Source of the DNA: Leucoraja erinacea
Taxonomy: Eukaryota
Length of the DNA: 64,000 bases
NCBI RefSeq assembly: GCF_028641065.1
Contig: NC_073392.1
Coordinates: 24,180,001 to 24,244,000 of the forward strand
Reading direction: 5' to 3'
The translations under genes were made by a program, and so were the position numbers. Shown here piece after piece: positions 8,491 through 39,995 of the stretch. A model generated the notes under the pieces. That model was not told the DNA's origin and ran no database searches. It saw only the letters and a program-made list of their open reading frames with translations. The stretch's first letter is position 1, and each line of letters opens with the position of its first letter.

Positions 8491-10004
8491 ATGGCCTGGA
8501 CGTGGTGTGACCGAGGGCGGCTGCCCGCACCCTACCCCGTCTATGCCGCCCTCTGTTTGCTGTCGCTCACCTCCGTGGGCCAGGGCCTATCCCGCAAACC
8601 GGCTGGTGAAAGGGCAGCCCTTCCCGGTCTACTGGAACATGCCCACGTCGCGCTGCAGCTCCCACAGACGCGTCGACCTGCACTTGGGCGACTTTGGTAT
8701 TGTAACCAATAGAAATGAGATGTTTATTGGAGAGAAACTCACGATATTTTATTCTGGGCGGTTGGGAATTTATCCAACTTATCATAGTGGGGATCCCGAA
8801 AATGGGGGGCTCCCCCAGAACATGAGCCTGGAGGACCACCTGCGACAGGCCAGGATAGACATCGACAACTTTTTAGCCAAGGACTACCAGGGGTTGGCGG
8901 TGATAGACTGGGAGGATTGGCGCCCACTGTACGCAAGGAACTGGGGCTCCAAGAGAGTCTACCAGACAAAATCACAGGAGCTTGTCCGGGGGAGGAACCT
9001 CTCTCTCTTTCTCTCCAGTTGTCTTGGTGCGGAGCAGCGCTTGAATCGTCACGGTGTGGAAAACCGGTGCTGGGACAAGGGATTCATACGGGTCAACATG
9101 GCCATGATAGTCCGAATGGCGTCAGGTCCCGCTCCGGCCGTTGTTGACCCCACCCCGGGGTAAGCGGGGCCTTTGGGTCGTGGAGATTCGACCCGCAGCC
9201 GCCACCTGCTCCAACTTGCAGTTCGTTTGCAGATTGATCTGGTCCGCACTCTGGGCGAGAGCGCAGCGATGGGGGTGAGTGGAGCCATTCTGTGGGGGTC
9301 CATCGACTTCTCCAGAACCACGGTAAGCGCTCCCTTACTACCCCTCCCACAGTGCGGCGCTCCCTCACTGCCCCTTCCACCGTGCGGCGCTCCCTCACTG
9401 CCCCTCCCACAGTGCGGCGCTCCCTCACTGCCCCTCCCACATTGCGACGCTCCCTCAGTACAGCGTAACTCGCCGTCGGGACCAGGGGGGCTGTGGGCCA
9501 GGGTTCGGGAGGGGTGTGGGGTGGGGGGGGGGGGGGGGGAGGGGAGAGGGGGTGCCGAGGTTTCGCGGGTGATGCGGCGGTTAACTCTCCTGGTGCGCTT
9601 GGTGTTGCCAGGAAAACTGCCAGGCCGTGAAGGACCAGGTGCATAATGTGTTGGGGCCGTACATCCTGAACCTGACCGCGAGTGTACGGTTCTGCAGCCG
9701 GACGCTGTGCTCCAACCACGGCCGCTGCTACCGCCGCAACGCCGACGAGGATGTTTTCCTGCACTTGAACAGCAAGTCGTTCCGCATCGTGAAGCGCAAA
9801 CGGCGCACCGACAACGTTTTCATCAAGGGCCGGCCCAGTCTGTCGGACAAGAGGAATTACAAAGCCCACTTCCAGTATCAGTGTTACCGGGGCTGGAACG
9901 GCACCCGATGCACCCGGTACAAAAAGCCCATCGACTCGTGCCGAGTCGAGACCTCCCCGCTCACACTTGTCCTTGTCCTGCTCCTGAGCCTTCTCCTCAT
10001 ATGA
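8491..10004 (+). pseudogene. Hyaluronidase paralog B, disrupted; exon 1 remnant 8491-9000, exons 9233-9322 and 9612-10004
   Basis: 11-nt frameshifting deletion near 8601 relative to copy D; about 750-bp deletion at about 9000 removes the 3' half of exon 1 and its donor and joins to intron-1 sequence; Cys->Tyr in FQYQCY. Confidence 0.85.
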
Positions 10005-10547
10005 TGGATGTAGTTCCTGTCCAAAATAAAAACAATATCCTGAAACTCTCCCTGTTCAATTCACTTCTGTGTGTTTGGTCTTGTGACACAGAGGCTCACT
10101 CATAACACAGATCTGGCCCATCGGCCCACCGTCTCCACCTACCACACTTGTCAACACCAATCCCACCCACCCGCACTGTGACTCCTCTGCCTTCACCACT
10201 CAAGAACGCGCAAAGGCTCCTGAAATGTAGGTGTTGCGGGGCAAATGGATTAGCGTGGGATTGATACAGATTCCTCCGCGTCCACGTTCTGGCCAGATTG
10301 TTGCATCCTCCCCCTCACCCCGGCTCCGCAGCGCCCGGCCTCCGCCGCCTCTCCGGATGAAGCGAGAGACGGGCGCGGGTCGCGGGTGAGCGGAGCCGGG
10401 TGCCGGGAGTTGGCGGCTCGGCGGAGACAGGCCGCCACCGCCGCAGCCCAGGGTGAGTGCAGGGAAATCGAGGTCGGGGCTGCGGCCTAGTGTCCGGCCG
10501 AATTCCACAAATTCATAGCGTCAGAAGGCAGTGGAGGCCGATTCATT

Positions 10548-11410
10548 GGATAGGAGGCAGCACCCGCTCCACAATAATTCAATGCAGGTACCTCGCTAGA
10601 GTTAGTTCTCAGCCCCCTCCTACTATACTCCCTGTTCACTCACGACAGTGCGGCCAAATTCAGCTCTAACTCCATCTACAAGTTTGCAGCCGACACCACT
10701 GTGGTGGGTAGACACAAAATGTTGGAGTAACTCAGCGGGTGAGGCAGCATCTATGGAGAGAAGGAATTGGCGACGTTTCGGGTCGAGACCCTTCTTCACC
10801 TGATCATGAACAAAGATGAGACGGAGAACTTAGTGACACGGTGTCACGACATCAACCTCCCCCACGATGTCAGCGAGAGAAAGGAGCTAGTTATTGACCA
10901 TGGGGAACTTGTCCCCGTCAGCACCAATGGTGACGTAGTGGAGGTGGTCGAGAGCTTCAAGTTCCCAGGTGTAAACATCACCAACAATCTGCCCAGGGAC
11001 AACCACATTGAGGCTACGGCCACGAAAGCACATCAACGCCTCTACTTCCTCGGGAGACCAAGGAGGTTCGGCACGTCTCCAACGTCCCTTCCCAACGTCA
11101 ACATGTGCATCGTATCGGGATGCATCACAGCTCGGTTTGGGAACTGCTCTGCCCAAGACCACAAGAAAGCGCTGAGAGTTGTGGATGTAGCCCAGTCCGT
11201 CACACAGACCAGACACCCCACCACCGACTCCATCTACGCTTCACGCTGCCTCGGGAAAGCAGCCAACATCATCAAGATCCACTCACACCCCGGTCATTCC
11301 CTCTTCTCCCATTTGGTAGAAGATGCAGAAGCTTGAAAACACGCACAACCACATTCAGGAGCAGCCTCTTACCCGCTGTTATCACACACTTGAATAGGGC
11401 TCACATAAAC
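10548..11410 (+). mobile_element. Degenerate Rex1-type LINE 3' part (paralogous copies at about 22095-23010 and 25945-26820)
   Basis: KFAADTTVVG, KELVID, KAHQRLYFL, WFGN.SAQD, IY.SRCL.KA..IIKD.SHPGH motifs; interrupted by a Penelope-derived repeat. Confidence 0.75.
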
Positions 11411-11659
11411 TAACAATGTTTTTTGAATCTTCCAATCTTCCTCATTCCGACTGTTGCACTTTATTCTCTGCACTTTGCACCTGTAACATTATTTTCTGCA
11501 CCCTGGTATTTTTCTCTTTGCGCTACCTGGTGTCCACGGGTATGTCATGATTATACTCAGGTCTGGTATTATTTGACCATATCACGTATCAACATTGTTG
11601 GCTGTGGTGAACGTGACATAACTAACAAGGTGGCCAGGGCCCAGCTTGTCCAGTGACCG

Positions 11660-14600
11660 ATGGCCTGGACGTGGTGTGACCCAGGGCGGCTGCCCGCACC
11701 CTACCCCATCTATGCCGCTCTCTGTTTGCTGTCGCTCACCTCCGTGGGCCAGGGCATTTTCCGCAAACCGGTCATGCCCCCGCTGGTGGAAGGGCAGCCC
11801 TTCCAGGTCTACTGGAACGTGCCCGCGGCGCGCTGCAGCTCCCACAGACGAATCAACCTGTACTTGGAACAATTTGGTATTGTAACCAACGAAAATGAGA
11901 GGTTTGTTGGAAAGCAAATCACGGTATTTTATGCTACGCGGTTCGGGCATTATCCTTATTATTACGACGAGGTTCCCGTAAATGGGGGGCTCCCCCAGAA
12001 CATGAGCCTGAGGGAACACCTGCGTCAGGCCAGGGCAGACATCCACAACTTCCTATCCAAGGACTACGCGGGGCTGGCGGTGATAGAATGGGTGTCGTGG
12101 CGCCCCCTGTACGCAAGGAACACGGGCTACAGGGAAGTCTACCAGACAAAATCAATGGAGCTTGTCCGGGGGAGGAACCCCCGATGGAATCAAAGCCAGG
12201 TCGAAGCTGAAGCTAAGAGGGATTTTGACCAGGCGGCTAGAATCTACATGAGCTCTTCCCTGAGGCTGGGCCAGTCGATGCGACCGAAGGCCCACTGGGG
12301 ATTCGCACTCTTCCCGGATTGCTACAACGGCAACTACGGGGAAGAGTTCCCCACGTACGACGGCCACTGCCCAGATATCGAGATCAAGCGCAACAATGAG
12401 CTGACGTGGATGTGGACTCGGAGCTCTGCCCTCTACCCGACCGTCTACCTGGAGGAGGCACTCCATTCGGAGCGCGGCAAACTTTACGCCAGATACCGGG
12501 TAAAGGAAGCCATGCGTGTGGCTTTGCTGACCAAAGAGGAATACGCTCCGCCCGTTTACATCTACTGCCGCTCCCACTACATGAACAGCAGAACCCTCAC
12601 GCCCCTCAAGGAGGTGAGTAGAGGCCGTGCACCTGGCCAGCGTTCCCTTGCAACTCCATAGCCGCCCCCCCCCCCCCCCCCCCCCCCCCCCCCGTCCGCT
12701 CTGATGGTCATTGAGCGGAAACGTTGATTACCCCCCCCCCCCCCCCTCACAGTTGTAGAGAGTAATGTCGTCCTCCGTCCCTCCCTCCCTCCCTCCCTCC
12801 CTCCCTTTCCCCCCCTCTCCCTCCTTCTCCCCACTCTCCCTCCCTCTCAATCTCCTCCTCTCCCTACCTCCCTCTCCCTCTCCCCACTCTCCCTCCCTCC
12901 CCCTCTCCCCATCTCCCTCTCCCCTCTCTCCCTCCCTCTCCCCCTCTCCATCTCCCCATCTCTCCCTCTCTCTCTTTCTCTCTCTCGTCGAGTCGGCCTC
13001 GTGTGGAGCAGCGCTCGAATCGTCGCGGTGTGGAAACCAGCAGGGCACTTGCGGGGACTAGGAATTCATAGAAACATAGAAACATAGAAACATAGAAATT
13101 AGGTGCAGGAGTAGGCCATTCGGCCCTTCGAGCCTGCACCGCCATTCAATATGATCATGGCTGATCATCCCAACTCAGTATCCCGTACCTGCCTTCTCTC
13201 CATACCCCCTGATCCCCTTAGCCACAAGGGCCACATCTAACTCCCTCTTAAATATAGCCAATGAACTGGCCTCAACTACCCTCTGTGGCAGAGAGTTCCA
13301 GAGATTCACCACTCTCTGTGTGAAAAAGTTCTTCTCATCTCGGTTTTAAAGGATTTCCCCTTTATCCTTAAGCTGTGACCCCTTGTCCTGGACTTCCCTA
13401 ACATCGGGAACAATCTTCCTGCATCTAGCCTGTCCAACCCCTTAAGAATTTTGTAAGTTTCTATAAGATCCCCTCTCAATCTTCTAAATTCTAGAGAGTA
13501 TAAACCAAGTCTATCCAGTCTTTCTTCATAAGACAGTCCTGACATCCCAGGAATCAGTCTGGTGAACCGTCTCTGCACTCCCTCTATGGCAATAATGTCC
13601 TTCCTCAGATTTGGAGACCAAAACTGTACGCAATACTCCAGGTGTGGTCTCACCAAGACCCTGTACAACTGCAGTAGAACCTCTCTGCTCCTATACTCAA
13701 ATCCTTTTGCAATGAAAGCTAACATACCATTCGCTTTCTTTGCTGCCTGCTGCACCTGCATGCCTACCTTCAATGACTGGTGTACCATGACACCCAGGTC
13801 TCGCTGCATCTCCCCCTTTCCCAATCGGCCACCATTTAGATAATAGTCTGCTTTCCTGTTTTTGCCACCAAAATGGATAACCTCACATTTATCCACATTA
13901 TACTGCATCTGCCAAACATTTGCCCACTCACCCAGCCTATCCAAGTCACCCTGCAGTCTCCTAGCATCCTCCTCACAGCTAACACTGCCCCCCAGCTTAG
14001 TGTCATCCGCAAACTTGGAGATATTGCCTTCAATTCCCTCATCCAGATCATTAATATATATTGTAAATAGCTGGGGTCCCAGTACTGAGCCTTGGGGTAC
14101 CCCACTAGTCACTGCCTGCCATTGTGAAAAGGACCCGTTTACTCCTACTCTTTGCTTCCTGTTTGCCAGCCAGTTCTCTATCCACATCAATACTGAACCC
14201 CCAATGCCTTGTGCTTTAATATTTAATATATAATAATACGGGTCAGCATGGCCGTGATGGGCCGAATGGCATGTTTCCGTGCTGTTCGTGTCTCTAACTG
14301 CGTGGGTCAACATCTGTATCACAGTCCCCACTGCCCACTGAGTCCACATCTGGCTACCTCAGAGAGCAGGACCGTGATGGGCCGAATGGCGTCAGGTCCC
14401 GCTCCGGTAGCTGCTGACCCCCCCCCCCCCCCCCCCCGGGGTAAGCGGAGCCGATGGGGCGGGGAGATCCGACCCGCAGCCGCCACCTGCTCCAACTTGC
14501 AGTTCGTTTGCAGATTGATCTGGTCCGCACTCTGGGCGAGAGCGCAGCGATGGGGGCGAGCGGAGCCATTCTGTGGGGGTCCGTCGACTTCTCCAGAACC

Positions 14601-14783
14601 ACGGTAAGCGCTCACTCACTGCCCCTCCCACAGCGCGGCGCTCCCTCACTGCCCCTCCCACCGCGCGGCGCTCCCTCAGCCCCTCCCACAGCGCGGCGCT
14701 CATTGTCACCGCCCCTCCCACTCGACGTCTCGACGTCGGGACAGGGGGTGGGGGGGCTGTGGGCCTGGGCTCGGGAGGGGTGT

Positions 14784-14817
<34 letters not shown>

Positions 14818-15292
14818 AGGGCGGCGGGGGAGTGGGATGCCGAGGTTTCGCGGATGGTGCGGCGGATAACTGTCCTGCTGCGCTCGTTGTTGGCAGGCAA
14901 GCTGCCTGTCCGTGCAGAAACAAGTGCAGAATGTGTTGGGGCCGTACATCCTGAACCTGACGGCGGCCGTGCGGACCTGCAGCTTAACACTGTGCGCCAA
15001 CCACGGCCGCTGCTTTCGCCGCAACGCCGAGGAGGATGTGTTCCTGCACTTGAACAGCAAGTCGTTCCGCATCCTGAAGCGCAGCAAGGCGGGCGGCGGC
15101 AAGGTTTCCATCAAGGGCCGGGCGAGTCTGTTGGACAAGAGGGATTACAAATCCCACTTCCAGTGTCAGTGTTACCGGGGCTGGAACGGCGTCCGATGCA
15201 GCCGCTACAGAAACCCCTCCGCGTCCTGTCGAGCCGAGACCTCCCCGCTCACACTTGTCCTCGTCCTGCTCCTGAGCCTTCTCCTCATATGA
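11660..15292 (+). CDS. Hyaluronidase-like paralog C, intact ORF but predicted non-catalytic; exons 11660-12613, 14514-14603, 14897-15292 (479 aa)
   Basis: Same exon structure and Cys pattern as A; catalytic DWE replaced by EWV (12086-12094), WGFY->WGFA, RNW->RNT; GT-AG sites intact; CR1 inserted in intron 1. Confidence 0.85.
13070..14238 (-). mobile_element. CR1-type LINE 3' fragment in intron 1 of copy C
   Basis: [31 protein letters not shown]; (catagaaa)n tail; interrupts ttcata|cgggtcagc, which is contiguous in copies A, B and D. Confidence 0.9.
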
Positions 15293-17513
15293 AGGCTGTA
15301 GTTCCTGTCGAAAATAAAGACAATTTCCTGAAACTCACCCTGTTGACTGTTGTTCACGCGTGTTTGGTCTTGTGGCACAGAGGCTCACTCACAGCACAGA
15401 TCTGGCCTTTCGGCCCACCATCTCCACCTGTCACACTTGTCAACACTGATCCCACCCACCCGCACTGTGACTTCTCTGCCTTCACCACTCACGAACGCGC
15501 AGAGGCTCCTGAAATGTAGGTGTTGCGGGGCAAGTGGATTAGGGTGGGATTGTTACGGGGCTGTGGGAGAGAGCGGGCAGTGGGATTAGTGTTGGATTGT
15601 TACGGGGCTGTGGGAGAGAGCGGGCAGTGGGATTAGTGTTGGATTGCTACAGTGCTGTGGATAGAGACGACACGAATTGAGGGTCTCTCAAGGTGCTGCT
15701 GTGCCGTACGTTCCGACAATATTGGCACAAAGCGCCCAGTGAAGAGCCGGGATGACCGAGGTGATGAGGGGGTTTCAGGGTGCTGCAAGACGTGGGAGGG
15801 TGGGACTTCCTGACACTCGGGATCAACGATGCCGACACTTCACCAAAACTACCCAGCGTCTACAGGTGTACGGTAGGGAGCACACTGACTGGTTGCATCA
15901 CAGCCTGGCTCAGTAACTCGAACGCCCAGGAATGAAGGATACTACAGAGAGTGGTGGACGCTGCCCGGTCCATCACTGGTACTGACTTCCCCACCATCGA
16001 AGGGATCTACAGGAGACGCTACCCCCTCTACAGGAACTGTACATTGGAAGTCGCAACTCTAGAGCCAATAAAATCATGGGAGACCCCGTTCCACCCCTGC
16101 AACGGACTGTTCCAGCTGCCACGGTCAGGCAAACGCCTCCGTGCCCATGCTGTGACAACGATGAGGTTGAGAAGGAGTTTCTTCCCAGAAGCCATTAGGA
16201 CTGTAAACTCCTACCTCACCAGGGACTAACTTTACTGTACCACTCTACTGCTTTTTTTTTTAATTGCTGTTTTTTTTCCCTTTTTCCTTCCTCCCACAAT
16301 ATGTAATATGTAAAAGAATATGTGATTCTGTTCCATTCTGTTTGTTGTTTGTTTGTTTTTTTGCACAATACGTGAGCATTGCCACTTTTCATTTCCCTGC
16401 ACATCTCGTATGTGTATGTGGCGAATAAACGTGACTTGCCTCAAAAAGGCAGCCAGCGTCATCACAGACCCACACCGCGCTGTCCACACTCAACTAATCG
16501 GATAGAAGGTACAGGAGCCTGAAAACCGTGACCTCCAGGTTCATGAACAGCTTCTTCCCAGCAACCATCAGGCTCTTTGAAACAGAAACATAGAAATAGG
16601 TGCAGGAGTAGGCCGTTCGGCCCTTCGACCCTGCACCGCCATTCAATATGATCATGGCTGATCATCCAACTCAGTATCGTGTACCTGCCTTCTCTCCATA
16701 CCCCCTGATCCCTTTAGCCACAAGGGCCACATCAAACTCCCTCTTAAATATAGGCCAATGAACTGGCCTCAACTACCTTCTGTGGCAGAGAATTCCACAG
16801 ATTCACCATTCTCTGTGTAAAAAATGATTTTCTCATCTCAGTCCTAAAAGACTTCCCCCTTATTCTTAAACATCACACGCCGCAGCACTCGTGAGCAAAG
16901 ATCCTAGAGGAGCAAGATAGACCACTCCTCGAAAAACGCGTAGTATGACGTGTGTGATCGTCGACGCCATTTTTCGAGGCATTTATTGGGCTTCCCCCAC
17001 ACTGTCATGGCGTCCTTATCTAAATTTCATCTCACTGCTCTGCTATCAAGTATTCTAATCGTAAATCTAAACGACCCGACCTGTCATTCTTTAGGTTCCC
17101 CAATAAAAAAGAAAGGTGAGAAAATATTTTTATTATTTTCAGTCGATATTCTGTCGTGAAAATGTTATTTTCTGTTCTCCCATCAACGGCCATTGGGAAA
17201 CTTGGTTTGTCGGTACATTAGAAAGTTATTAGACTTATTTTTAATAGTTCTTTACTCACCACAATAATAAAGACAATTTTAACACTTCTGTACGTTTTTG
17301 GTTTTGTTTTGTAAGGGATTAGTCTCCACAATATGGCCCGCGGACACATCAGGTCCAGTGACCAGGAGATTTTTCGAGCTCAGATTCAAGTCCGAGCATG
17401 GGCGGCTGTTACCCATTATATTCCTCGAACATAGGGACGTAGCAAACAACACTCACATACGTACAAGACATCACAAGCAAAGATCACAAGCCCGCCGTGA
17501 AGAAGGGTGCAAT

Positions 17514-17625
17514 CAAATATTATATAACTCTGCTCTATCACCTTTGGGTGCAATGGTGGGTCGGGGGGTTCGGTGGCGGCGGCCGCAATCAAAGATACTA
17601 GTGGAGCTCTGCTCTATAATCTTTG
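17514..17625. mobile_element. Two older TIR-TIR scars (17514-17546, 17590-17625)
   Basis: First is flanked by perfect ggtgcaat repeats; second (caaagatactagtggagctctgctctataatctttg) by gccgcaat/gtcggaat. Confidence 0.65.
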
Positions 17626-18299
17626 GTCGGAATGGGACGGCTGCGCGTTATAATGTGCTATCGTTCCACTCTCCCTCTCCCCCTTCTCCCTCTCCCCCTT
17701 GTCCCTGTCCCCTTCTCCCTCCCCCCTTCTCCCTGTCCCCTCCTTTCCCCTTCTCCCTCCCCCTTCTCCCTCTCCCCCCTTCTCCCTCTCTTCTCTCGAT
17801 CTCTCTCTCCCCTCCTCTCGCTCTCTCGCTCCCCTCTCTTCTCTCGATCTCTCTCTCTCTCTCTCTCTCTCTCCCCCTCTCTTCGCGATCTCCCTCCCTT
17901 CCCTCTCTCCCTCCCTTCCATCTCTCCCTCCCTTACCTCTTCGTGAGAGTTGGCAGCTCTGCTATGCCTTGGGTCCAAAAGAGGATAGATAGAAAATACT
18001 TAATGGTCTTTGTAAGAAGATTTTAATAAGCTCTTCTACATTTAAGGTAAATTGACATATTAGAGCCAAAACGCATTTTCAATATACAGGTCTCTCCACA
18101 CAACTGAAAACAATTGCATTTAAGTGATATATCATCCATTGTTCAGGCAAGTAGCACTAGGTTACAATAAACTTCTTACATATTCCAGGAATTCATCTCA
18201 TAAAAATGGGAGAGGCTTAAATGCATTGTAAAATTATAAATCCATGTTGACTTGGACTAATCCTTTTACTGCTATCCAATGCCCCATTATTACATCTTT

Positions 18300-19629
18300 A
18301 ATAATTGACTCCAGCATCTTTCACACCACCAAAGTCAGGCTAACTGGTCTGTAATTCCCCGTTTTCTCTCTCGCTCCTTTCTTGAAAAGTGGGATAGCAT
18401 TAGCTATCCTCCAATCCACAGGAACTGGTCGTAAATCTATTGATCGTTGGAAAATAATAGAAACATAGAAACATAGAAATTAGGTGCAGGAGTAGGCCAT
18501 TCGGCCCTTCGAGCCTGCAACGCCATTCAATATGATCATGGCTGATCATCCAACTCAGTATCCCGTACCTGCCTTCTCTCCATACCCTCTGATCCCCTTA
18601 GCCACAAGGGCCACATCTAACTCCCTCTTAAATATAGCCAATGAACTGGCCTCGACTACCCTCTGCGGCAGAGAGTTCCAGAGATTCACCACTCTCTATG
18701 TGAAAAAGGTTCTTCTCATCTCGGTTTTAAAGGATTTCCCCTTTATCCTTAAGCTGTGACCCCTTGTCCTGGACTTCCCTAACATCGGGAACAATCTTCC
18801 TGCATCTAGCCTGTCCAACCCCTTAAGAATTTTGTAAGTTTCTATAAGATACCCTCCCAATCTCCTAAATTCTAGAGAGTATAAACCAAATATATCCAGC
18901 CTTTCTTCATATGAAAGTCCTGACATCCCAGGAATCAGTGGTGAACCTTCTCTGCACTCCCTCTATGGCAATAATGTCCTTCCTCAGATTTGGAGACCAA
19001 AACTGTACGCAATACTCCAGGTGTGGTCTCACCAAGACCCTGTACAACTGCAGTAGAACCTCCCTGCTCCTATACTCAAATCCTTTCGCTATGAAAGCTA
19101 ACATACCATTCGCTTTCTTCACTGCCTGCTGCACCTGCATGCCTACTTTCAATGCCTGGTGTACCATGACACCCAGGTCTCGCTGCATCTCCCCTTTTCC
19201 TAGTCGGCCGCCATTTAGATAATAGTCTGCTTTCCTGTTTTTGCCACCAAAATGGATAACCTCACATTTATCCACATTATACTGCATCTGCCAAACATTA
19301 GCCCACTCACCCAGCCTATCCAAGTCACCTTGCAGTCTCCTAGCATCCTCCTCACAGCTAACACTGCCCCCCAGCTTAGTGTCATCCGCAAACTTGGAGA
19401 TATTGCCTTCAATTCCCTCATCCAGATCATTAATATATATTGTAAATAGCTTGGGTCCCAGTACTGAGCCTTGCGGTACCCCACTAGTCACTGCCTGCCT
19501 AATGAAGAACTCAACCATATTATGGTCACTCTTGCCCAAGGGGGCACGTACAACAAGATTGCTAACTAACCCGTCCTCATTACTCAATACCCAGTCTAAA
19601 ATAGCCTGCTCTCTCGTTGGTTCCTCTAC
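18300..19629 (-). mobile_element. CR1 LINE fragments nested in the DNA transposon
   Basis: Near-identical to 13070-14200; internal junction from endonuclease (SDHN) to RT near 19498. Confidence 0.85.
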
Positions 19630-19930
19630 NNNNNNNNNNNNNNNNNNNNNNNNNNNNNNNNNNNNNNNNNNNNNNNNNNNNNNNNNNNNNNNNNNNNNNN
19701 NNNNNNNNNNNNNNNNNNNNNNNNNNNNNNNNNNNNNNNNNNNNNNNNNNNNNNNNNNAAATGTATCCATATGNNNNNNNNNNNNNNNNNNNNNNNNNNN
19801 NNNNNNNNNNNNNNNNNNNNNNNNNNNNNNNNNNNNNNNNNNNNNNNNNNNNNNNNNNNNNNNNNNNNNNNNNNNNNNNNNNNNNNNNNNNNNNNNNNNN
19901 NNNNNNNNNNNNNNNNNNNNNNNNNNNNNN
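19630..19930. other. Assembly gaps (19630-19758 and 19774-19930)
   Basis: N runs around a 15-nt island. Confidence 0.99.
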
Positions 19931-20197
19931 CCTTTATGGTTTATGTATATCATCTTACAAGACAAATAAATTAATAGTGATTATTTAAATCAAAGTTGCT
20001 TCTGATCCATGAGAATAAACTTAACTATCTGTAACTTGCCTCTCACACACAGACACACATTCATATAAATATATATAATATGTATACGTTAAATTTAATT
20101 TTGTGCAGTGTGTGTTAAAGCAATACAATGCAAGGGAAACTACGCAAAGGAGGGGGCTGTTCCCGCTACAAGATACTCGAGGATCTTTGCTTTGGAT

Positions 20198-20228
20198 CAA
20201 AGATTATAGCGGAGCTCTATAATCTTTG
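20198..20228. mobile_element. 31-bp TIR-TIR transposon scar
   Basis: caaagattatagcggag+ctctataatctttg between perfect ctttggat repeats. Confidence 0.8.
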
Positions 20229-20979
20229 CTTTGGATCACAGCGGGTGGCATACCGGAAGTCGCATGTCGCACTAAAAAATGGCGGCCGTGACGTTCCGTC
20301 ACGTACTACACGCCAGCCCATTGAATTTCGAAGGAGTGGTCTATCTTGTTCCTCTAGGATCTTTGCTCGTGAGTAAGATAAGGCAGCGCCTTTATCACCT
20401 CAGGCAATTGAGGAAATTCAGAGTGTCTCCGAGGATCCTCCAGTGCTTCTACTCAGGGGCTGTGGAAAGCATCTTGTCCGGAAATATTACCATCTGGTTT
20501 GGGAACTGCTCTGCCCAGGACAAGAAGGCTCTGCAGAGAGTAGTGCGTTCGGCCGAATGCACTATGGGGACTTCACTCGCCCCCCTGCAGGAACTATACA
20601 TCAGGGGGTGCAGCTACAGAGCCAATAAAATCATGGGAGACCCCTTCCACCCCTGCAACGGACTGTTCCAGCTGATAGGTCAGGCAAACGCCTCCGTTGC
20701 CATGCTGTGAGAACGGAGAGGTTGAGAAGGAGTTTCTTCCCAGAGGCCATTCGGACTGTAAACTCCTATCTCACCAGGGACTAACTTTACTGAACGTTTT
20801 TCCTTCCGCCCACAATATTTAATATGTAAAAGAATATGTGATTCTGTTCCATTCTGTTTGTAGTTTGTTTGGTTGTTTGTTTGTTTGTCTTTTTGCACAA
20901 AGTCCGCGAGCATTGCCAATTTTCATTTCACTGCACATCTCGTATGTGTATGTGGCAAATAAACGTGACGACTTGACTT

Positions 20980-21785
20980 GACTCCAGTCCTTTTGTAATT
21001 TTATATGTTTCTATAAGATATCCCTTCATCCTTCTAAATTCCAGTGAATACAAGCCTAGTCTTTTCAATCTTTCCCCATATGACAGTTCCGCCATCCCAG
21101 GGATCAATCTCGTGAACCTACGCTGCACTGCCTCATCACAAGGATGTCCTTCCTCAAATTAGGAGACCAAAACTGTACACAATACTCCAGATGTGGTCCT
21201 ACCAGAGCCCTATACAACTGCAGAAGAACCTCTCTACCCCTATACTGAAATCGTCTTGCTATGAAGGCCAACATTCCATTAGCTTTCTTCACTGCCTGCT
21301 GTACCTGCACGCCAACTTACAGTGATTGGTGTACAAGGACACCCACGTCTCGCTGTACCTCCCCTTACCTAACCCTAACCCCATTGAGATAATAATCTGC
21401 CCCCTTGTTTTTGCCACCAAAGTGGATAACCTCACATTGATCTAAATTATACTGCATCTGCCACGCATCTGCCCACTCATTCAACCTATCCAGGTCATCC
21501 TGCAACCTCCTAACATCCTCTTCACAGTTCACACTGCCACCCAGCTTTGTGTCATCCGCAAACTTGCTAGTGTTGCTCCTAATTCCCTCTTCCAAATCAT
21601 TAATATATATGGTCAACAGTTGGGGCCCCAACACCGAGCCTTCCGGCACTCCACTCGCCACTGTCTGCCATTCTGAAAAGGACCCGTTCACTCCTACGCT
21701 TTGCTTCCTGTCTGCCAACCAATGTTCTATCCACGTCAACACCCAACCCCCAATACCATGTGCTCTACTTTTAGTCACCAGTCTA
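20980..21785 (-). mobile_element. CR1 LINE RT fragment
   Basis: [32 protein letters not shown]. Confidence 0.8.
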
Positions 21786-21844
21786 TGCTGGCCAAAGAGC
21801 AATATACTCCGGCCATCTTCCTCTAATGCCGCTCCCACTACATC
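21786..21844 (+). pseudogene. Short relic of a hyaluronidase exon-1 3' end
   Basis: tgctggccaaagagcaatatactccggccatcttcctctaatgccgctcccactacatc aligns by eye to LLTKGEYTPPIFLYCRSHFI of copies A/D, with an in-frame TAA. Confidence 0.65.
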
Positions 21845-23261
21845 TCCCGCAACAGGCTCCCCACCCACTCGGGACCGGGCCCCACACCCTGCACCCCACA
21901 CACACAGGGCACTGCATATCCCTGCATATAAAAGCCCCTTAAACACCACTATCTACCCCCATCACGATTCCGGCACCACGTTCACAGACACATGGCACAC
22001 ACACACACACACACACTCATAAACGCCCACACGCACACTCACGAACACACTCACACGCACACACAGAATCAGTCTCGCAGGGTTCAGCTTTGCTACAAGA
22101 TGTTCCTGACCTGGATACCACAATCAGTGAAGATAGGAGACAGCACCCGCTCCACAATAATTCAATGCAGGTACCTCGCTAGAGTTAGTTCTCAGCCCCC
22201 TCCTACTATACTCCCCTGTTCACTCACGACAGTGCGGCCAAATTCAGCTCTAACTCCATCTACAAGTTTGCAGCCGACACCACTGTGGTGGGTAGACACA
22301 AAATGTTGGAGTAACTCAGCGGGTGAGGCAGCATCTATGGAGAGAAGGAATTGGCGACGTTTCGGGTCGAGACCCTTCTTCACCTGATCATGAACAAAGA
22401 TGAGACGGACTTCAAGAAGGAGACGGAGAACTTAGTGACACGGTGTCAGGACATCAACCTCTCCCTTGATGTCAGCGAGAGAAAGGAGCTAGTTATTGAC
22501 CATGGGGAACTTGTCCCCGTCAGCACCAATGGTGACGTAGTGGAGATGGTCGAGAGCTTCCAGTTCCCAGGTGTAAACATCACCAACAATCTGCCCAGGA
22601 CCAATCACATTGAGGCTACGGCCACGAAAGCACATCAACGCCTCTACTGCCTCAGGAGACCAAGGAGGTTCGGCACGTCTCCAACGTCCCTTCCCAAAGT
22701 CAACAGGTGCATCGTATCGGGATGCATCACAGCTCGGTTTGGGAACAGCTCTGCCCAAGACCACAAGAAAGCGCTGAGAGTTATGGATGTAGCCCAGTCC
22801 GTCACACAGACCAGACACCCCACCACCGACTCCATCTACGCTTCACGCTGCCTCGGGAAAGCAGCCAACACCATCAAGATCCATTCACACCCCGGCCATT
22901 CCCTCTTCTCCCATTTGGTAGAAGATGCAGAAGCTTGAAAACACGCACAACCACATTCAGGAGCAGCCTCTTACCCGCTGTTATCACACACTTGAATAGG
23001 GCTCACATAAACTAACAATGTTTTTTGAATCTTCCAATCTTCCTCATTCCGCCTGTTGCACGTTATTCTTTGCACTTTGCACGTGTAACATTATTTTCTG
23101 CACCCTGGTATTTTTTTCATTCGTCTACCTGGTGTCCACGGGTATGTCATGATTGTACTCATGTCTGGTATTATTTGGCAATATCACGTATCAACATTGT
23201 TGGCTGTGGTGGACGTGACATAACTAACAAGGTGGCCAGGGCGCAGCTTGTCCAGTGACCG

Positions 23262-25398
23262 ATGGCCTGGACGTGGTGTGACCGAGGGCGGCTGCCCGCA
23301 CCCTACCCCGTCTATGCCGCCGTCTGTTTGTTGTCGCTCACCTCCGTGGGCCGGGGCCTATCCCGCAAACCGGCCATCCCGCCGCTAGTGAAAGGGCAGC
23401 CCTTCCAGGTCTACTGGAACGTGCCCACGTCGCGCTGCAGCACCCACAGAGGCGTCGACCTGCACTTGGGCGACTTTGGTATTGTAACCAATAGAAATGA
23501 GATGTTTATTGGAGAGAAACTCACGATATTTTATTCTACGCGGTTGGGAATTTATCCAACTTATCATAGTGGGGATCCCGAAAATGGGGGGCTCCCCCAG
23601 AACATGAGCTTGAAGGACCACCTGCGACAGGCCAGGGTAGACATCGACAACGTTTTAGCCACGGACTACCAGGGGTTGGCGGTGATAGACTGGGAGGATT
23701 GGCGCCCCCTGTACGCAAGGAACTGGGGCTCCAAGAGAGTCTACCAGACAAAATCACAGGAGCTTGTCCGGGGGAGGAACCCCGAATGGAACCAAACCCA
23801 TATCGAAGCTGAAGCTAAGAAGGAGTTTGACAAGGCGGCTAAAATGTACATGATGTCTTCCCTGAGGCTGGGCCAGTCGATGCGACCGAAGGCCTACTGG
23901 GGATTTTACCTCTTCCCGGATTGCTACAACTACCACTTCAGGGAAGAGTTCCCCACGTACGACGGCCACTGCCCAGACATCGAGATCAAGCGTAACAATG
24001 AGCTGACGTGGATGTGGACTCAGAGCTCTGCCCTCTTCCCGTCCGTCTACCTAGAGGAGAAGATCAAGTCGGAGCGCGGTCAGCGCGGCAAACTCTACGC
24101 CAGATACCGGATACGGGAAGCCGTGCGTGTGGCTTTGCTGACCAAAGGGAAATATACTCCGCCCATCTTCCTCTACTGCCGCTCCCACTTCATCGACAGC
24201 AAAACCCTCACGCCCCTCAATGAGGTGAGTAGAGGCCGTGCACCTGGTCATCATTCCCTTGCAATTCCATAGCCGCTGGTTCCCCCGCCCGCTCTGACGG
24301 TCACTGAGCGGAAACTTTGACTGTGTCTCCCCCACCCTCCCAACAGTTGCACCACCTACATCCAACCCGGGCATCTCGCTCTCCTTCTCTCTCCCCCTTC
24401 CTCTCTTTCCTTCTCCCCCTCTCCCTCTTCACCCCTCTCCATCCTCCGCTCCCTCCCTCCCTCCCTCTCCCTCTCTCTCTTTCTCTCCAGTCGTCTTGGT
24501 GTGGAGCAGCGCTTGAATCGTCGCGGTGTGGAAAACCGGTGCTGGGACAAGGGATTCATACGGGTCAGCATGGCCATGATAGTCCGAATGGCGTCAGGTC
24601 CCGCTCCGGCCGCTGCTGACCCCACCCCGGGGTAAGCGGGGCCTTTGGGTCGTGGAGATTCGACCCGCAGCCGCCACCTGCTCCAACTTGCGGTTCGTTT
24701 GCAGATTGATCTGGTCCGCACTCTGGGCGAGAGCGCAGCGATGGGGGTGAGTGGAGCCATTCTGTGGGGGTCCATCGACTTCTCCAGAACCACGGTAAGC
24801 GCTCCCTTACTACCCCCCCCCCCCCCTCTCCCACATTGCGACGCTCCCTCAGTACAGCGTAACTCGCCGCCGGGACCAGAGGGGGCTGTGGGCCAGGGCT
24901 CGGGAGGGGTGTGGGGTTGGGGGGGGGGGGGGGGGGGGAGACGGATGCCGAGGTTTCGCGGGTGATGCGGCGGTTAACTCTCCTGGTGCGCTCGGTGTTG
25001 CCAGGAAAACTGCCAGGCCGTGAAGGACCAGGTGCATAATGTGCTGGGGCCGTACATCCTGAACCTGACCGCGAGTGTACGGTTCTGCAGCCGGATGCTG
25101 TGCTCCAACCACGGCCGCTGCTACCGCCGCAACGCCGACGAGGATGTTTTCCTGCACTTGAACAGCAAGTCGTTCCACATCGTGAAGCGCAAACGGCGCA
25201 CGCGACAAAGTTTACATCAAGGGCCGGCCCAGTCTGTCGGACAAGAGGAATTACAAAGCCCACTTCCAGTGTCAGTGTTACCGGGGCTGGAACGGCACCC
25301 GATGCACCCGGTACAAAAAGCCCATCGACTCGTGCCGAGTCGAGACCTCCCCGCTCACACTTGTCCTCGTCCTGCTCCTGAGCCTTCTCCTCATATGA
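23262..25398 (+). CDS. Hyaluronidase paralog D (catalytic type); exons 23262-24224, 24705-24794, 25005-25398, with apparent +1 frameshift near 25202
   Basis: DWEDW motif intact, highly similar to A/B; last exon is 394 nt (cgcacgcgacaaa vs cgcaccgacaac in B), so either a pseudogene allele or an assembly indel. Confidence 0.8.
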
Positions 25399-27070
25399 TG
25401 GATGTAGTTCCTGTCCAAAATAAAAACAATATCCTGAAACTCTCCCTGTTCAATTCACTTCTGTGTGTTTGGTCTTGTGACACAGAGGCTCACTCATAAC
25501 ACAGATCTGGCCCATCGGCCCACCGTCTCCACCTACCACACTTGTCAACACCAATCCCACCCACCCGCACTGTGACTCCTCTGCCTTCACCACTCAAGAA
25601 CGCGCAGAGGCTCCTGAAATGTAGGTGTTGCGGGGCAAGTGGATTAGTGTGGGATTGATACAGATTCGTCCGGGTCCAAGTTCTGGCCAGATTGTTGCAT
25701 CCTCCCCCTCACCCCGGCTCCGCAGCGCCCGGCCTCCGCCGCCTCTCCGGATGAAGCGAGAGACGGGCGCGGGTCGCGGGTGAGCGGAGCCGGGTGCCGG
25801 GAGTTGGCGGCTCGGCGGAGACAGGCCGCCACCGCCGCAGCCCAGGGTGAGTGCAGGGAAATCGAGGTCGGGGCTGCGGCCTAGTGTCCGGCCGAATTCC
25901 ACAAATTCATAGCGTCAGAAGGCAGTGGAGGCCGATTCATTGGATAGGAGGCAGCACCCGCTCCACAATAATTCAATGCAGGTACCTCGCTAGAGTTAGT
26001 TCTCAGCCCCCCCTACTATATTCCCTGTTCACTCACGACAGTGCGGCCAAATTCAGCTCTAACTCCATCTACAAGTTTGCAGCCGACACCACTGTGGTGG
26101 GTAGACACAAAATGCTGGAGTAACTCAGCGGGTGAGGCAGCATCTATGGAGAGAAGGAATTGGCGACGTTTCGGGTCGAGACCCTTCTTCACCTGATCAT
26201 GAACAAAGATGAGACGGAGTTCAAGAAGGAAACGTAGAACTTAGTGACACGGTATCAGGACATCAACCTCCCCCACGATGTCAGCGAGAGAAAGGAGCTA
26301 GTTATTGACCATGGGGAACTTGTCCCCGTCAGCACCAATGGTGACGTAGTGGAGATGGTCGAGAGCTTCAAGTTCCCATGTGTAAACATCACCAACAATC
26401 TGCCCAGGGACAACCACATTGAGGCTACGGCCACGAAAGCACATCAACGCCTCTACTTCCTCGGGAGACCAAGGAGGTTCGGCACGTCTCCAACGTCCCT
26501 TCCCAACGTCAACAGGTGCATCGTATCGGGATGCATCACAGCTCGGTTTGGGAGCAGCTCTGCCCAAGACCACAAGAAATCACAGCGAATTGTGGATGTA
26601 GCCCAGTCCGTCACACAGACCCGACTCCCCACCAGCGACTCCATCTACGCTTCACGCTGCCTCGGGAAAGCAGCCAACATCATCAAGGACCACTCACACC
26701 CCGGTCATTCCCTCTTCTCCCATTTGGTAGAAGATGCAGAAGCTTGAAAACACGCACAACCACATTCAGGAGCAGCCTCTTACCCGCTGTTATCACACAC
26801 TTGAATAGGGCTCACATAAACTACCAATGTTTTTTGAATCTTCCAATCTTCCTCATTCCGACTGTTGCACTTTATTCTCTGCACTTTGCACCTGTAACAT
26901 TATTTTCTGCACCCTGGTATTTTTCTCTTTGCGCTACCTGGTGTCCACGGGTATGTCATGATTGTACTCAGGTCTGGTATTATTTGACCATATCACGTAT
27001 CAACATTGTTGGCTGTGGTGGACGTGACATAACTAACAAGGTGGCCAGGGCGCAGCTTGTCCAGTGACCG

Positions 27071-28512
27071 ATGGCCTGGACGTGGTGTGACCCAGGGCGG
27101 CTGCCCGCATCCTACCCCATCTATGCCGCTCTCTGTTTGCTGTCGCTCACCTCCGTGGGCCAGGGCATTTTCCGCAAACCGGTCATGCCCCCGCTGGTGG
27201 AAGGGCAGCCCTTCCAGGTCTACTGGAACGTGCCCACGTCGCGCTGCAGCACCCACAGACGCGTCAACCTGCACTTGAACGACTTTGGTATTATAACCAA
27301 TAGAAATGAGAGGTTTATTGGAGAGATAATCACGGTATTTTATTCTGAGCGGTTGGGGCATTATCCTTCTTATTACGACGAGGATCCCGAAAATGGGGGG
27401 CTCCCCCAGAACATGAGCCTGAAGGAACACCTGCGTCAGGCCAGGGTAGACATCCACAACTACCTATCCAAGGACTACGCGGGGATGGCGGTGATAGAGT
27501 GGGTGGATTGGCGCCCCCTGTACGCAAGGAACACGGGCGACAGGAAAGTCTACCAGACAAAATCAATGGAGCTTGTCCGGGGGAGGAACCCCCGATGGAA
27601 TCAAAGCCAGGTCGAAGCTGAAGCTAAGAGGGATTTTGACCAGGCGGCTAGAATCTACATGAGCTCTTCCCTGAGGCTGGGCCAGTCGATGCGACCGAAG
27701 GCCTACTGGGGATTCGCACTCTTCCCGGATTGCTACAACGGCAACTACGGGGAAGAGTTCCCCACGTACGACGGCCACTGCCCAGATATCGAGATCAAGC
27801 GCAACAATGAGCTGACGTGGATGTGGACTCAGAGCTCTGCCCTCTTCCCGTCCGTCTACCTGGAGGAGGCACTCCATTCGGAGCGCGGCAAACTCTACGC
27901 CAGATACCGGATAAAGGAAGCCATACGTGTGGCTTTGCTGACCAAAGAGGAATACGCTCCGCCCGTTTACATCTACTGCCGCTCCCACTACATAAACAGC
28001 AGAACCCTCACGCCCCTCAAGGAGGTGAGTAGAGGCCGTGCACCTGGCCAGCGTTCCCTTGCAACTCCATAGCCGCTGCCCCCCCCCCCCCCCCCCCCCG
28101 TCCGCTCTGATGGTCATTGAGCGGAAACGTTGATTACCCCCCCCCCCCTCACAGTTGTAGAGAGTAATGTCGTCCACCGTCCCTCCCTCCCTCCCTCCGT
28201 CCCTCCCTCCCTTTCCCCCCCTCTCCTCCTTCTCCCCACTCTCCATCCCTCTCCATCTCCCCCTCTCCCTCTCCCTCTCCCCTCTCTCCCTCCCTCTCCC
28301 CCTCTCCATCTCCCCATCTCTCCCTCTCTCTCTCTCTCTCTCGTCGAGTCGGCCTCGTGAGGAGCATGTTTCCGTGCATGTTCGTGTCTCTAACTGCGTG
28401 GGTCAACATCTGTATCACAGTCCCCACTGGCCACTGAGTCCACATCTGGCTACCTCAGACAGCAGGACCGTGATGGTCCGAATGGCGTCAGGTCCCGCTC
28501 CGGCCGTTGCTG

Positions 28513-28547
<35 letters not shown>

Positions 28548-29358
28548 GGTAAGCGGAGCCGATGGGGCGGGGAGATCCGACCCGCAGCCGCCACCTGCTC
28601 CAACTTGCAGTTCGTTTGCAGATTGATCTGGTCCGCACTCTGGGCGAGAGCGCAGCGATGGGGGCGAGCGGAGCCATTCTGTGGGGGGTCCATCGACTTC
28701 TCCCAAAACAAGGTAAGCGCTCCCTCACTGCCCCTCCCACAGTGCGGCGCTCCCTCACTGCCCCTCCCTCAGTGCGGCGCTCCCTCAGTACATCGTAACT
28801 CGACGTCGGGAGGGGGGGGGGGGGGGGGGGGGGCTGTGGGCCTGGGCTCGGGGGGGGTGTGGGGGGGGGGGGGGGGGGGGGGGGGAGGGGGGGGGGAGTG
28901 GGATGCCGAGGTTTCGCGGATGGTGCGGCGGATAACTGTCCTGCTGCGCTCGTTGTTGGCAGGCAAGCTGCCAGGCCGTGCACAAACAAGTGCAGAATGT
29001 GTTGGGGCCGTACATCCTGAACCTGACGGCGGCCGTGCGGAGCTGCAGCTTAACACTGTGCGCCAACCACGGCCGCTGCTTTCGCCGCAACGCCGAGGAG
29101 GATGTGTTCCTGCACTTGAACAGCAAGTCGTTCCGCATCCTGAAGCGCAGCAAGGCGGGCGGCGGCAAGGTTTACATCAAGGGCCGGGCGAGTCTGTTGG
29201 ACAAGAGGGATTACAAATCCCACTTCCAGTGTCAGTGTTACCGGGGCTGGAACGGCGTCCGATGCAGCCGCTACAGAAAGCCCTCCGCGTCCTGTCGAGC
29301 CGAGACCTCCCCGCTCACACTTGTCCTCGTCCTGCTCCTGAGCCTTCTCCTCATATGA
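27071..29358 (+). CDS. Hyaluronidase-like paralog E, predicted non-catalytic; exons 27071-28024, 28622-28712, 28963-29358
   Basis: EWVDW instead of DWEDW (27497-27505), WGFA, RNT; middle exon is 91 nt because of one extra G in a G-run at 28683-28688 (possible homopolymer error). Confidence 0.8.
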
Positions 29359-29619
29359 AGGCTGTACTTCCTGTCGAAAATAAAGACAATTTCCTGAAAC
29401 TCACCCTGTTGACTGTTGTTCACGCGTGTTTGGTCTTGTGGCACAGAGGCTCACTCACAGCACAGATCTGGCCTTTCGGCCCACCATCTCCACCTGTCAC
29501 ACTTGTCAACACTGATCCCACCCACCCGCACTGTGACTCCTCTGCCTTCACCACTCAAGAACGCGCAGAGGCTCCTGAAATGTAGGTGTTGCGGGGCAAA
29601 TGGATTAGGGTGGGGTTGA

Positions 29620-36272: not shown

Positions 36273-36312
<40 letters not shown>

Positions 36313-39689: not shown

Positions 39690-39995
39690 CAAACACTGCT
39701 TGTGAGCCATTTAAAAAGAAATGATTTAAAAAACATTAAAAAAGACAATTACCAGAGTCAAATTTTATTCTTGACAAGAAGTATGAACTGACAGAATTAT
39801 GAATCTAACCCTATATCACACACACAAACTGTTGCCCCGCAACATTGATTACATTGCTGTCGGGTCGGGTCAGGTAGGCTCCGGTTACTAAAATGGGCGG
39901 GGGAAAAATGCCCAGGATTCCCTCCGTAGCGTACTACACGTCGGCGCATTGTATTCCGCAGGAGTAGCCCATCTTGCTCTGCTCTAAGATCTTTG
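39690..39995. mobile_element. Internally deleted member of the same CAAAGAT family
   Basis: TSD gccaggcc at 39682-39689 and 39996-40003; right end ggagtagcccatcttgctctgctctaagatctttg and subterminal gtactacacg resemble 20300-20365. Confidence 0.65.

What the first reader, a model, noticed from the sequence alone, without database searches (positions are those of the whole stretch)
11660..29358. Hyaluronidase pseudo-enzymes (C and E) paired with catalytic-type copies in a tandem array
Seen: copies C and E read AVIEWV(S/D)W where A, B, D and HYAL2 read AVIDWE(D/E)W. They also share WGFY->WGFA and RNW->RNT, yet keep the signal peptide, the Cys pattern, splice sites, EGF-like domain and hydrophobic tail. 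Known: in GH56 the Glu of D-W-E is the proton donor (human HYAL1 E131), and D129 and Y202 position the substrate acetamido group. Inference: the active-site residues are lost together while the frame and fold are preserved. This fits a selected, non-hydrolytic, GPI-anchored glycosaminoglycan-binding protein, analogous to GH18 chi-lectins, or a decoy/receptor (mammalian HYAL2 is the JSRV envelope receptor). The layout A - [B, C] - [D, E] - HYAL2 suggests an enzyme plus pseudo-enzyme module duplicated as a unit.
Basis: partly seen in the sequence, partly recalled or inferred. Interest (0 to 1): 0.85.

Follow-up and report, generated by a model that had tools for sequence, protein, structure and literature searches.

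The report
Catalytically stripped skate hyaluronidase copies
Skates appear to have duplicated a hyaluronidase gene and kept a version whose cutting residues are gone but whose fold and anchor remain, and this version is changing unusually fast, which suggests a binding or decoy role rather than an enzyme.

Summary
The substitutions are real. C and E carry D129E, E131V, W141T and Y202A (HYAL1 numbering), plus a fifth pocket loss (Y to G, C residue 224). An intact 479-aa Amblyraja radiata orthologue shares all five, so this is neither a sequencing error nor a private lesion.

Corrections: as read, only A and C are intact. E and D each have a one-base insertion, and B is deleted. The array is not HYAL2-derived; it is a skate expansion of an elasmobranch HYAL2-linked gene whose shark and ray members keep D-W-E.

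Overall dN/dS is about 0.9, but this is not plain drift. Conserved columns are spared, all 14 Cys are kept, and C versus E differ at 4.7% of non-synonymous sites against 2.5% non-coding (p=0.0005), peaking in the beta1-beta3 loops.

Best reading: a selected, non-hydrolytic, probably GPI-anchored GH56 protein with a remodelled pocket under diversifying selection. Its ligand and expression are untested. Three pocket aromatics are lost, so ordinary hyaluronan binding is doubtful. Inactive GH56 proteins are known from wasp venom, and an independent teleost clade turned up here. New variant of a known kind.

The parts
11660..12613 (+). Copy C exon 1 (signal segment, GH56 barrel beta1-beta7). Changed pocket codons: 12086 (D129E), 12092 (E131V), 12122 (W141T), 12305 (Y202A), 12329 (Y to G, C residue 224)
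14514..14603 (+). Copy C exon 2 (90 nt, in frame, keeps the W321 equivalent)
14897..15292 (+). Copy C exon 3 (EGF-like Cys domain, hydrophobic tail, stop). Spliced C = 479 aa, intact
11825..11980 (+). Fast-evolving patch of C (residues 56-107, beta1-beta3 loops and hairpin): 11 of 28 C-derived amino-acid changes
13070..14240 (-). LINE (reverse transcriptase) insertion in intron 1 of C, absent from E. The label CR1-like is recalled
27071..28024 (+). Copy E exon 1, same five pocket changes (27497, 27503, 27533, 27716, 27740)
28622..28712 (+). Copy E exon 2, 91 nt: one extra base in a G run (28683-28688), frameshift as read (real lesion or homopolymer error)
28963..29358 (+). Copy E exon 3 (98.5% identical to C)
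4935..7155 (+). Copy A, catalytic type (DWED), intact, 481 aa; exons 4935-5897, 6440-6529, 6763-7155
8491..10004 (+). Copy B, catalytic-type pseudogene (11-nt deletion, 443-nt exon-1 deletion, Cys to Tyr)
23262..25398 (+). Copy D, catalytic type, +1 frameshift in exon 3 near 25200-25204 as read
21783..21852 (+). 70-bp degenerate remnant of a sixth, catalytic-type exon 1
10306..10551 (+). CpG-rich copy of the segment 1.7 kb upstream of the HYAL2 ATG (32521-32685); further copies at 7865-8090 and 25700-25945. Possible captured promoter or first exon (inference)
19630..19930 (.). Two assembly gaps (N runs 19630-19758 and 19774-19930) between the two modules
34310..37029 (+). True HYAL2 orthologue (DWEE), intact, 466 aa; exons 34310-35236, 35857-35946, 36646-37029

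Best explanation
C (with E and the Amblyraja orthologue P0001) encodes a non-hydrolytic GH56 protein kept by selection in skates. SHOWN: an elasmobranch hyaluronidase gene beside HYAL2, found as one D-W-E protein per species in the sharks and rays sampled, was duplicated in skates. One branch lost the acid (Glu to Val), changed the acetamido-positioning Asp to Glu, and replaced three aromatic walls of the -1/+1 pocket by Thr, Ala and Gly, while keeping the barrel, EGF-like domain, Cys and minus-side groove residues. Later a B+C block was duplicated to D+E. INFERRED: the protein is secreted and GPI-anchored, cannot run substrate-assisted hydrolysis, and works as a cell-surface binding protein whose widened groove and fast-changing beta1-beta3 rim hold a ligand that itself varies (a sulfated or otherwise bulkier glycan, or a glycoprotein of a parasite, microbe or gamete), not plain hyaluronan in the enzyme's pose. 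My odds: no canonical hydrolysis about 0.9; kept as a protein by selection about 0.8; the whole statement about 0.6.
For: Five pocket changes shared by C, E and an intact 479-aa A. radiata protein. Background keeps D/E/W/Y in 119/120/117/119 of 125. A wasp GH56 double mutant at the same two acids lost all activity (PMC6892566, passages). Pocket membership of D110, E112, W122, Y183, Y191, Y230, Y277, W305 comes from PMC13080975 (passages and section 20); the mapping of W122 and Y191 rests on spacing from D110 and Y183, that of Y277 and W305 on approximate offset. Nine base changes fall in five of these eight codons against 1.3-1.9 expected on one lineage (P 1e-5 to 2e-4; 0.01-0.05 if counted as five events). 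Conserved columns are spared: C vs P0001 5 of 115 against 36 of 242 variable columns (p=0.0025), similar to the active pair A vs P0003 (4 of 115 against 42 of 242). AlphaFold model of P0001: pLDDT 90, best Foldseek hit 2pe4, TM 0.81/0.93. C vs E: about 50 non-synonymous to 5 synonymous differences (NG86 omega 2.9, p=0.009); non-synonymous 50/1064 against non-coding 102/4006 (p=0.0005), residues 46-135 26/205; M2a vs M1a p=0.0008; clustering of C-derived changes, permutation p=0.004.
Against: No expression, protein or binding data could be obtained. Gene-wide omega is 0.90, and the catalytic pair A-D also gives 1.0, so fast evolution is not special to the dead copies. Omega>1 on the C branch alone is not significant (p=0.12; C+E p=0.03). 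Gene conversion is visible (E residues 57, 61, 83 match A/D) and can inflate site tests on four sequences. The 46-135 window was chosen after seeing the data. Three of five copies are broken as read, including E. Only two skate species show the type. Signal peptide and GPI anchor rest on hydropathy only. The AlphaFold model was built on an alignment of mostly active homologues, so it says little about the pocket.
Confidence: 0.6

Rival explanations
1. Birth-and-death decay: the EWV type is a redundant duplicate that lost catalysis and is drifting under weak constraint, its frame kept for a while by chance and by gene conversion from active neighbours.
For: Gene-wide omega 0.9-1.1 in five of six pairs; M0 0.90, internal branch 0.70, not significantly below 1. 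B, D and E are broken as read and a sixth remnant exists. A LINE sits in C intron 1.
Against: Conserved columns change 3-5 times less than variable ones in the EWV clade. The five pocket residues are identical in two species, while conversion has not restored them. Pocket codons carry more changes than neutral decay predicts. C-E non-synonymous divergence exceeds non-coding divergence.
Confidence: 0.15
2. Chi-lectin-like hyaluronan or chondroitin binder: the protein keeps binding the ancestral substrate and acts as a receptor or as a brake on the active paralogue.
For: Minus-side and far-plus residues are kept: Y91, R148, R158, Y263, Y307, W339; net charge stays positive (+18 to +21). HYAL3 is described as a non-enzymatic regulator of HYAL1 (PMC12254123, passages).
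Against: Three of six pocket aromatics are lost. An invariant ligand such as hyaluronan does not explain the excess of amino-acid change at the groove rim.
Confidence: 0.17
3. Rewired enzyme: the new Glu at the 129 position reaches into the space left by Y202A and serves as acid or nucleophile on another glycan.
For: D129 became Glu rather than a neutral residue and is fixed in all three sequences; E uses GAG and C uses GAA, so the residue is kept while its codon varies. The groove is widened in a coordinated way.
Against: No second conserved acid: the residue after Val is S, D or E in C, E and P0001. No D-W-E-less active GH56 was seen in the papers read.
Confidence: 0.07
4. On copy number only: [B,C] and [D,E] are two haplotypes placed in tandem by the assembler, so C and E are divergent alleles of one gene (which would make the diversity balanced polymorphism).
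For: Assembly gaps lie between the modules; non-coding divergence is only 2.5% with a 270-bp identical stretch; three skate-array proteins, one of EWV type, were found for A. radiata.
Against: Module ends (8356-16898, 23127-31280) do not abut the gaps; about 5 kb between them is not duplicated; the sequence upstream of D matches that upstream of C and E, not of B.
Confidence: 0.12

Closest known systems
Vertebrate GH56 hyaluronidases (human HYAL1 PDB 2pe4, PH-20 PDB 9jub; Pfam PF01630)
   Same: Barrel plus EGF-like domain, Cys pattern, three coding exons like the neighbouring HYAL2; model TM 0.93 over 2pe4.
   Different: D129E, E131V, W141T, Y202A and a further Tyr to Gly; tandem array; omega near or above 1.
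Inactive vespid venom hyaluronidases Ves v 2b and VesT2b (PMC5075168, PMC6892566; passages read)
   Same: A GH56 paralogue lacking the catalytic acids, kept beside an active isoform.
   Different: Insect venom proteins of about 340 aa with the acids replaced by Asn in VesT2b; the skate protein is a vertebrate, EGF-bearing, probably GPI-anchored form with other substitutions and an independent origin.
Teleost GH56 clade found here (P0041-P0044, P0046, P0047: two Channa, Osmerus, Enoplosus, Genypterus, Lates; annotated as hyaluronidases)
   Same: Loss of D129 (6 of 6), E131 (5 of 6), W141, Y202; signal, EGF-like domain and hydrophobic tail kept in the full-length members.
   Different: Also loses R134, Y247 and R244-equivalent; has a long low-complexity stalk; old and divergent. 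A joint clade with the skate EWV type is rejected (AU p=0.002).
GH18 chi-lectins and heparanase 2 (recalled; HPSE2 seen only in the abstract of PMC12406646)
   Same: Glycosidase fold kept without catalysis, paired with an active paralogue.
   Different: Other families. Chi-lectins keep the aromatic groove and bind the ancestral substrate (recalled); here half the pocket aromatics are gone.
Mammalian HYAL2 as JSRV/ENTV receptor (PMC1262777, passages)
   Same: GPI-anchored GH56 used as a surface ligand-binding protein.
   Different: HYAL2 keeps D-W-E, has Ka/Ks 0.11-0.23 and no positive selection; the skate array is not HYAL2.

Membership tests
GH56 / PF01630 (fold family) | Profile match above the curated cut-off | tested here: met
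   C 345.7 bits, E 347.5 bits, cut-off 23.2
GH56 / PF01630 (fold family) | Distorted barrel plus EGF-like domain as in HYAL1 | tested here: met
   Model of the orthologue P0001, pLDDT 90; 2pe4 E 2e-44. C itself was not folded.
Active GH56 hyaluronidase | Catalytic Glu131 and Asp129 | tested here: not met
   Val and Glu in C, E, P0001
Active GH56 hyaluronidase | Tyr202, Tyr247, Trp321 positioning residues | tested here: not met
   Y202 is Ala; Y247 and W321 are kept
Active GH56 hyaluronidase | Hydrolysis of hyaluronan or chondroitin | not testable with these tools
   Needs recombinant protein
HYAL2 orthology group | Groups with vertebrate HYAL2 in a tree | tested here: not met
   Array groups with ray and shark 'hyaluronidase-4-like' proteins (SH-aLRT 97-99); the gene at 34310 is the one that groups with HYAL2 (quick trees, no bootstrap)
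HYAL6 group (holds the highly expressed stingray venom-gland transcript, PMC6315956 section 2.5) | Groups with fish hyal6 | tested here: not met
   Clupea, Hippoglossus and Dunckerocampus hyal6 form a separate clade. The Potamotrygon sequences themselves were not in my tree.
Selected pseudo-enzyme | Intact frame and fold constraints in more than one species | tested here: met
   C and P0001 intact; conserved columns spared, p=0.0025. E is frameshifted as read.
Selected pseudo-enzyme | Expression as spliced mRNA and protein | not testable with these tools
   No transcript data; the NCBI name of P0001 does not show expression
Chi-lectin-like substrate binder | Aromatic binding groove kept | tested here: inconclusive
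   3 of 6 pocket aromatics lost; Y91, Y263, Y307, W339, R148 kept
Chi-lectin-like substrate binder | Binds the ancestral glycan | not testable with these tools
   Needs binding assay
GPI-anchored surface protein | Signal peptide and C-terminal GPI signal | tested here: inconclusive
   Hydropathy peaks 2.0 (from residue 17) and 3.2 (from residue 467); no dedicated predictor was available

The most novel reading that the evidence does not exclude
Skates turned a hyaluronidase into a variable, non-catalytic cell-surface recognition protein (decoy or receptor in a parasite, microbe or gamete arms race), expressed from a promoter segment copied from HYAL2; and vertebrates have made GH56 pseudo-enzymes at least twice, with a widespread teleost clade mis-annotated as active hyaluronidases, so GH56 has its own unrecognised lectin-like branch in vertebrates.
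Probability: 0.22. Interest if true: 0.78.

Novelty: new variant of a known kind. Interest (0 to 1): 0.52.

Why it matters
Vertebrate hyaluronidases have long been suspected of non-enzymatic roles (HYAL2, HYAL3, PH-20), but those proteins keep the catalytic motif, so the roles are hard to separate from weak activity. A natural pair that is 74% identical, one with and one without the catalytic pocket (A and C; P0003 and P0001), makes the question directly testable: what does the GH56 fold do without hydrolysis? The excess of amino-acid change at the groove rim points to a varying ligand. Databases call these proteins, and a convergent teleost clade, hyaluronidases, which is probably wrong. It is not a new principle: pseudo-glycosidases are common and inactive GH56 proteins exist in wasp venom.

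Tried and rejected
Sequencing artefact for the motif: rejected, the same five changes are in two copies and in A. radiata. Descent from HYAL2, HYAL1 or HYAL6: not supported by two quick trees; the careful tree did not finish. Common origin with the teleost clade: rejected. Whole-tract gene conversion as the cause of the C-E excess: unlikely, since in residues 46-135 E is closer to C (2 synonymous differences) than to A (5); short conversions remain likely. Residue 132 as a substitute acid: it varies S/D/E. An EWV type outside skates: none in the 142 named proteins examined; a search focused on P0001 residues 120-240 returned only 4 skate proteins among 33 candidates; no other representative among the best 150 exceeded 49% identity. 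Only 120 of 1635 hits were listed, and only two other skate species appeared, so absence in Rhinoraja or other skates is not shown. One search printed an open 479-aa frame for E; this came from my off-by-one exon-3 start and was corrected. Fused gene predictions gave no synteny for the teleost clade. ESM Atlas returned only hyaluronidase clusters. Cluster membership of the skate proteins stayed unchecked, so I cannot say whether the second member of P0001's cluster is a paralogue or another species. The HYAL1 single-mutant paper was not held and a search for its mutants found nothing, so the effects of single E131, D129 and Y202 mutations rest on a summary sentence in PMC13080975 and on recall. 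Left out before counts: 17 unnamed hits unnamed representatives, and 13 fused proteins over 600 aa. No complex prediction was run, as no binding between copies is claimed. Metagenome and viral contig collections stayed unchecked. No supplements were read; Table S1 of PMC6315956 could bear on which stingray transcript is the orthologue.
Full report
Observation. A six-frame motif scan and direct reading found five related GH56 copies, A (4935-7155), B (8491-10004), C (11660-15292), D (23262-25398) and E (27071-29358), followed by a more distant gene at 34310-37029. C reads AVIEWVSW and E reads AVIEWVDW, both with RNT and WGFA. Alignment to human HYAL1 (2pe4) places the changes at D129, E131, W141 and Y202. 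With corrected exon ends, A (481 aa), C (479 aa) and the distant gene (466 aa) splice to intact frames with GT/AG sites. E has a 91-nt exon 2 (G6 where the others have G5), D has a 394-nt exon 3, and B has an 11-nt and a 443-nt deletion. E's extra base lies in a homopolymer and may be an assembly error; D's does not; B has several lesions and is very likely a true pseudogene (inference).

Origin of the array. The closest proteins are from the skate Amblyraja radiata (P0001 88% identical to C and 91% to E; P0002 and P0003 87-90% to A and D), then Rhinoraja, Hemitrygon and Narcine. The window is therefore from a skate (inference; species not determined). Two quick maximum-likelihood trees (82 and 49 rows, SH-aLRT only) put the array in a clade with one D-W-E protein each from Hemitrygon, Narcine and six sharks, apart from HYAL2, HYAL1 and hyal6; the gene at 34310 groups with HYAL2. 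Rhinoraja falls in an open fork with the A type and the C type, so the age of the duplication is unresolved. The highly expressed stingray venom-gland hyaluronidase was placed with HYAL6 (PMC6315956, passages and section 2.5), so this array is probably not its orthologue; those sequences were not in my trees. Self-alignment shows B+C duplicated to D+E at 92-97% identity, a sixth remnant at 21783-21852, and assembly gaps between the modules that do not coincide with the module ends.

The active site. P0001 is an intact 479-aa protein with EWVE, RNT and WGFA. Among 125 named background proteins, D129, E131, W141 and Y202 are kept in 119, 120, 117 and 119. A simulation study of a snake GH56 names six aromatic residues around subsites -1 to +1 plus the two acids (PMC13080975, passages and section 20). 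By spacing, five of these eight are changed in C, E and P0001: the four above and Tyr to Gly at C residue 224; Y263, Y307 and W339 are kept, as are Y91 and R148. The five codons carry nine base changes against 1.3-1.9 expected on one lineage (P 1e-5 to 2e-4), or P 0.01-0.05 if each codon is one event. This looks like remodelling more than decay. Replacing both acids abolished activity in a wasp enzyme (PMC6892566, passages), and Glu131 is the proton donor of HYAL1 (PMC11315327, passages). The AlphaFold model of P0001 is confident (pLDDT 90, pTM 0.87) and matches 2pe4 best; it was built on 61 mostly active homologues and gives no independent view of the pocket.

Selection. Gene-wide dN/dS is about 1 for five of six pairs among A, C, D and E (D and E read with X at the break) and 2.9 for C-E. 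My codon model gave M0 omega 0.90, with the same likelihood as IQ-TREE. Taken alone this meets the drift criterion. Three results go against drift. First, columns at least 90% conserved change far less than variable ones, in the dead clade as in the active one (C-P0001 5/115 against 36/242; A-P0003 4/115 against 42/242). Second, C-E non-synonymous divergence (50/1064) exceeds non-coding divergence between the modules (102/4006, p=0.0005), while synonymous divergence (5/370) does not. Third, a site model with a class above 1 fits better (omega 4.3, 16% of sites, p=0.0008), and 11 of 28 C-derived changes fall in residues 56-107 (permutation p=0.004), the region holding the beta3 loop and hairpin that lie near the catalytic Glu in HYAL1 (PMC11315327, passages). 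Against: four sequences only, signs of short gene conversion, a window chosen after the fact, omega on C alone not significantly above 1 (p=0.12), and an equally high gene-wide ratio in the catalytic pair A-D. The fast evolution is a property of the array, strongest in C and E.

How it most likely works. Shown: loss of the canonical catalytic set, a kept fold and termini, conservation in two skates, and mixed purifying and diversifying selection. Inferred: a secreted, GPI-anchored protein that binds without cutting. Because three pocket aromatics became small residues and the rim is diversifying, I favour a changed and variable ligand over plain hyaluronan (0.6 for the whole statement). Rivals: ordinary glycosaminoglycan lectin or regulator (0.17), decay (0.15), rewired enzyme (0.07); separately, C and E may be alleles (0.12). 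A CpG-rich 170-250-bp piece homologous to the region 1.7 kb upstream of HYAL2, with donor-like GTGAG sites, stands upstream of B, C and E. It may be a copied promoter or first exon; this is untested.

Comparison and novelty. Inactive GH56 paralogues are known from wasp venom (PMC5075168 and PMC6892566, passages). The only background exceptions at D129, E131 and Y202 were six teleost proteins that form one long-branched clade lacking D129, W141, Y202 and Y247; a joint clade with the skate type is rejected (AU p=0.002). Searches for a description of the skate genes or of a vertebrate GH56 pseudo-enzyme found none: 10 papers, 9 listed, none on this by title and abstract; 20 of 65 listed; 1 paper, on heparanases; abstract only; 0, recalled gene name; 0; 15 of 78 listed. 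These cover open-access text only. PMC12254123 and PMC1262777 were read as passages. I file it as a GH56-fold protein that is not an active hyaluronidase by sequence criteria, a new variant of a known kind.

Verdict. Interest 0.52; 0.78 if the arms-race recognition role and the parallel teleost clade hold up.

Noticed in passing
P0041-P0044, P0046, P0047 (teleosts): A teleost GH56 clade annotated as hyaluronidase lacks D129, W141, Y202, Y247 and mostly E131, and has a long low-complexity stalk before a hydrophobic tail: a probable second vertebrate pseudo-enzyme family. The nearest Atlas cluster has 88 chordate members.
   Followed up: partly
window 7865-8090, 10306-10551, 25700-25945 vs 32521-32685: CpG-rich segment from upstream of HYAL2, with two donor-like sites, copied in front of B, C and E; 10291-10560 and 25685-25954 are 100% identical. 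Copy A lacks the AG just before its ATG that B-E have.
   Followed up: partly
P0214, P0215, P0217, P0218, P0219, P0221, P0295 and shark P0205-P0213: Lungfish, caecilian, reptile, gar, bowfin, paddlefish and shark 'hyaluronidase-2/4-like' proteins form clades apart from HYAL1, HYAL2 and hyal6, several on contigs of the same length as HYAL1/2-type genes: possibly one unnamed vertebrate paralogue with no mammalian member in my sample. The trees leave it unresolved.
   Followed up: partly
window 21783-21852: 70-bp remnant of a further catalytic-type exon 1 with a stop, next to a LINE fragment.
   Followed up: yes
window 4935-7155 and 23262-25398: The catalytic-type copies also evolve fast (A-D omega 1.0; 37 of 45 amino-acid differences in variable columns) and share Y307F in the pocket.
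   Followed up: partly
window 41310-50620: Exons of a peptidase M16 family gene on the + strand (Pfam PF00675), probably UQCRC1-like (name recalled).
   Followed up: no
window 57943-60165 (-): Uninterrupted 741-aa LINE reverse-transcriptase frame (RVT_1 and ALKBH8_N matches), so a young element.
   Followed up: no
window 35240-35790 and 39930-40430: GC-rich tandem repeats: a short-unit array in HYAL2 intron 1 and an array of about 36-bp units downstream.
   Followed up: no
P0002, P0004: Database models of skate catalytic-type copies that read through the exon-1 donor or use a wrong last exon; whether these are mis-annotations or broken copies is open.
   Followed up: no
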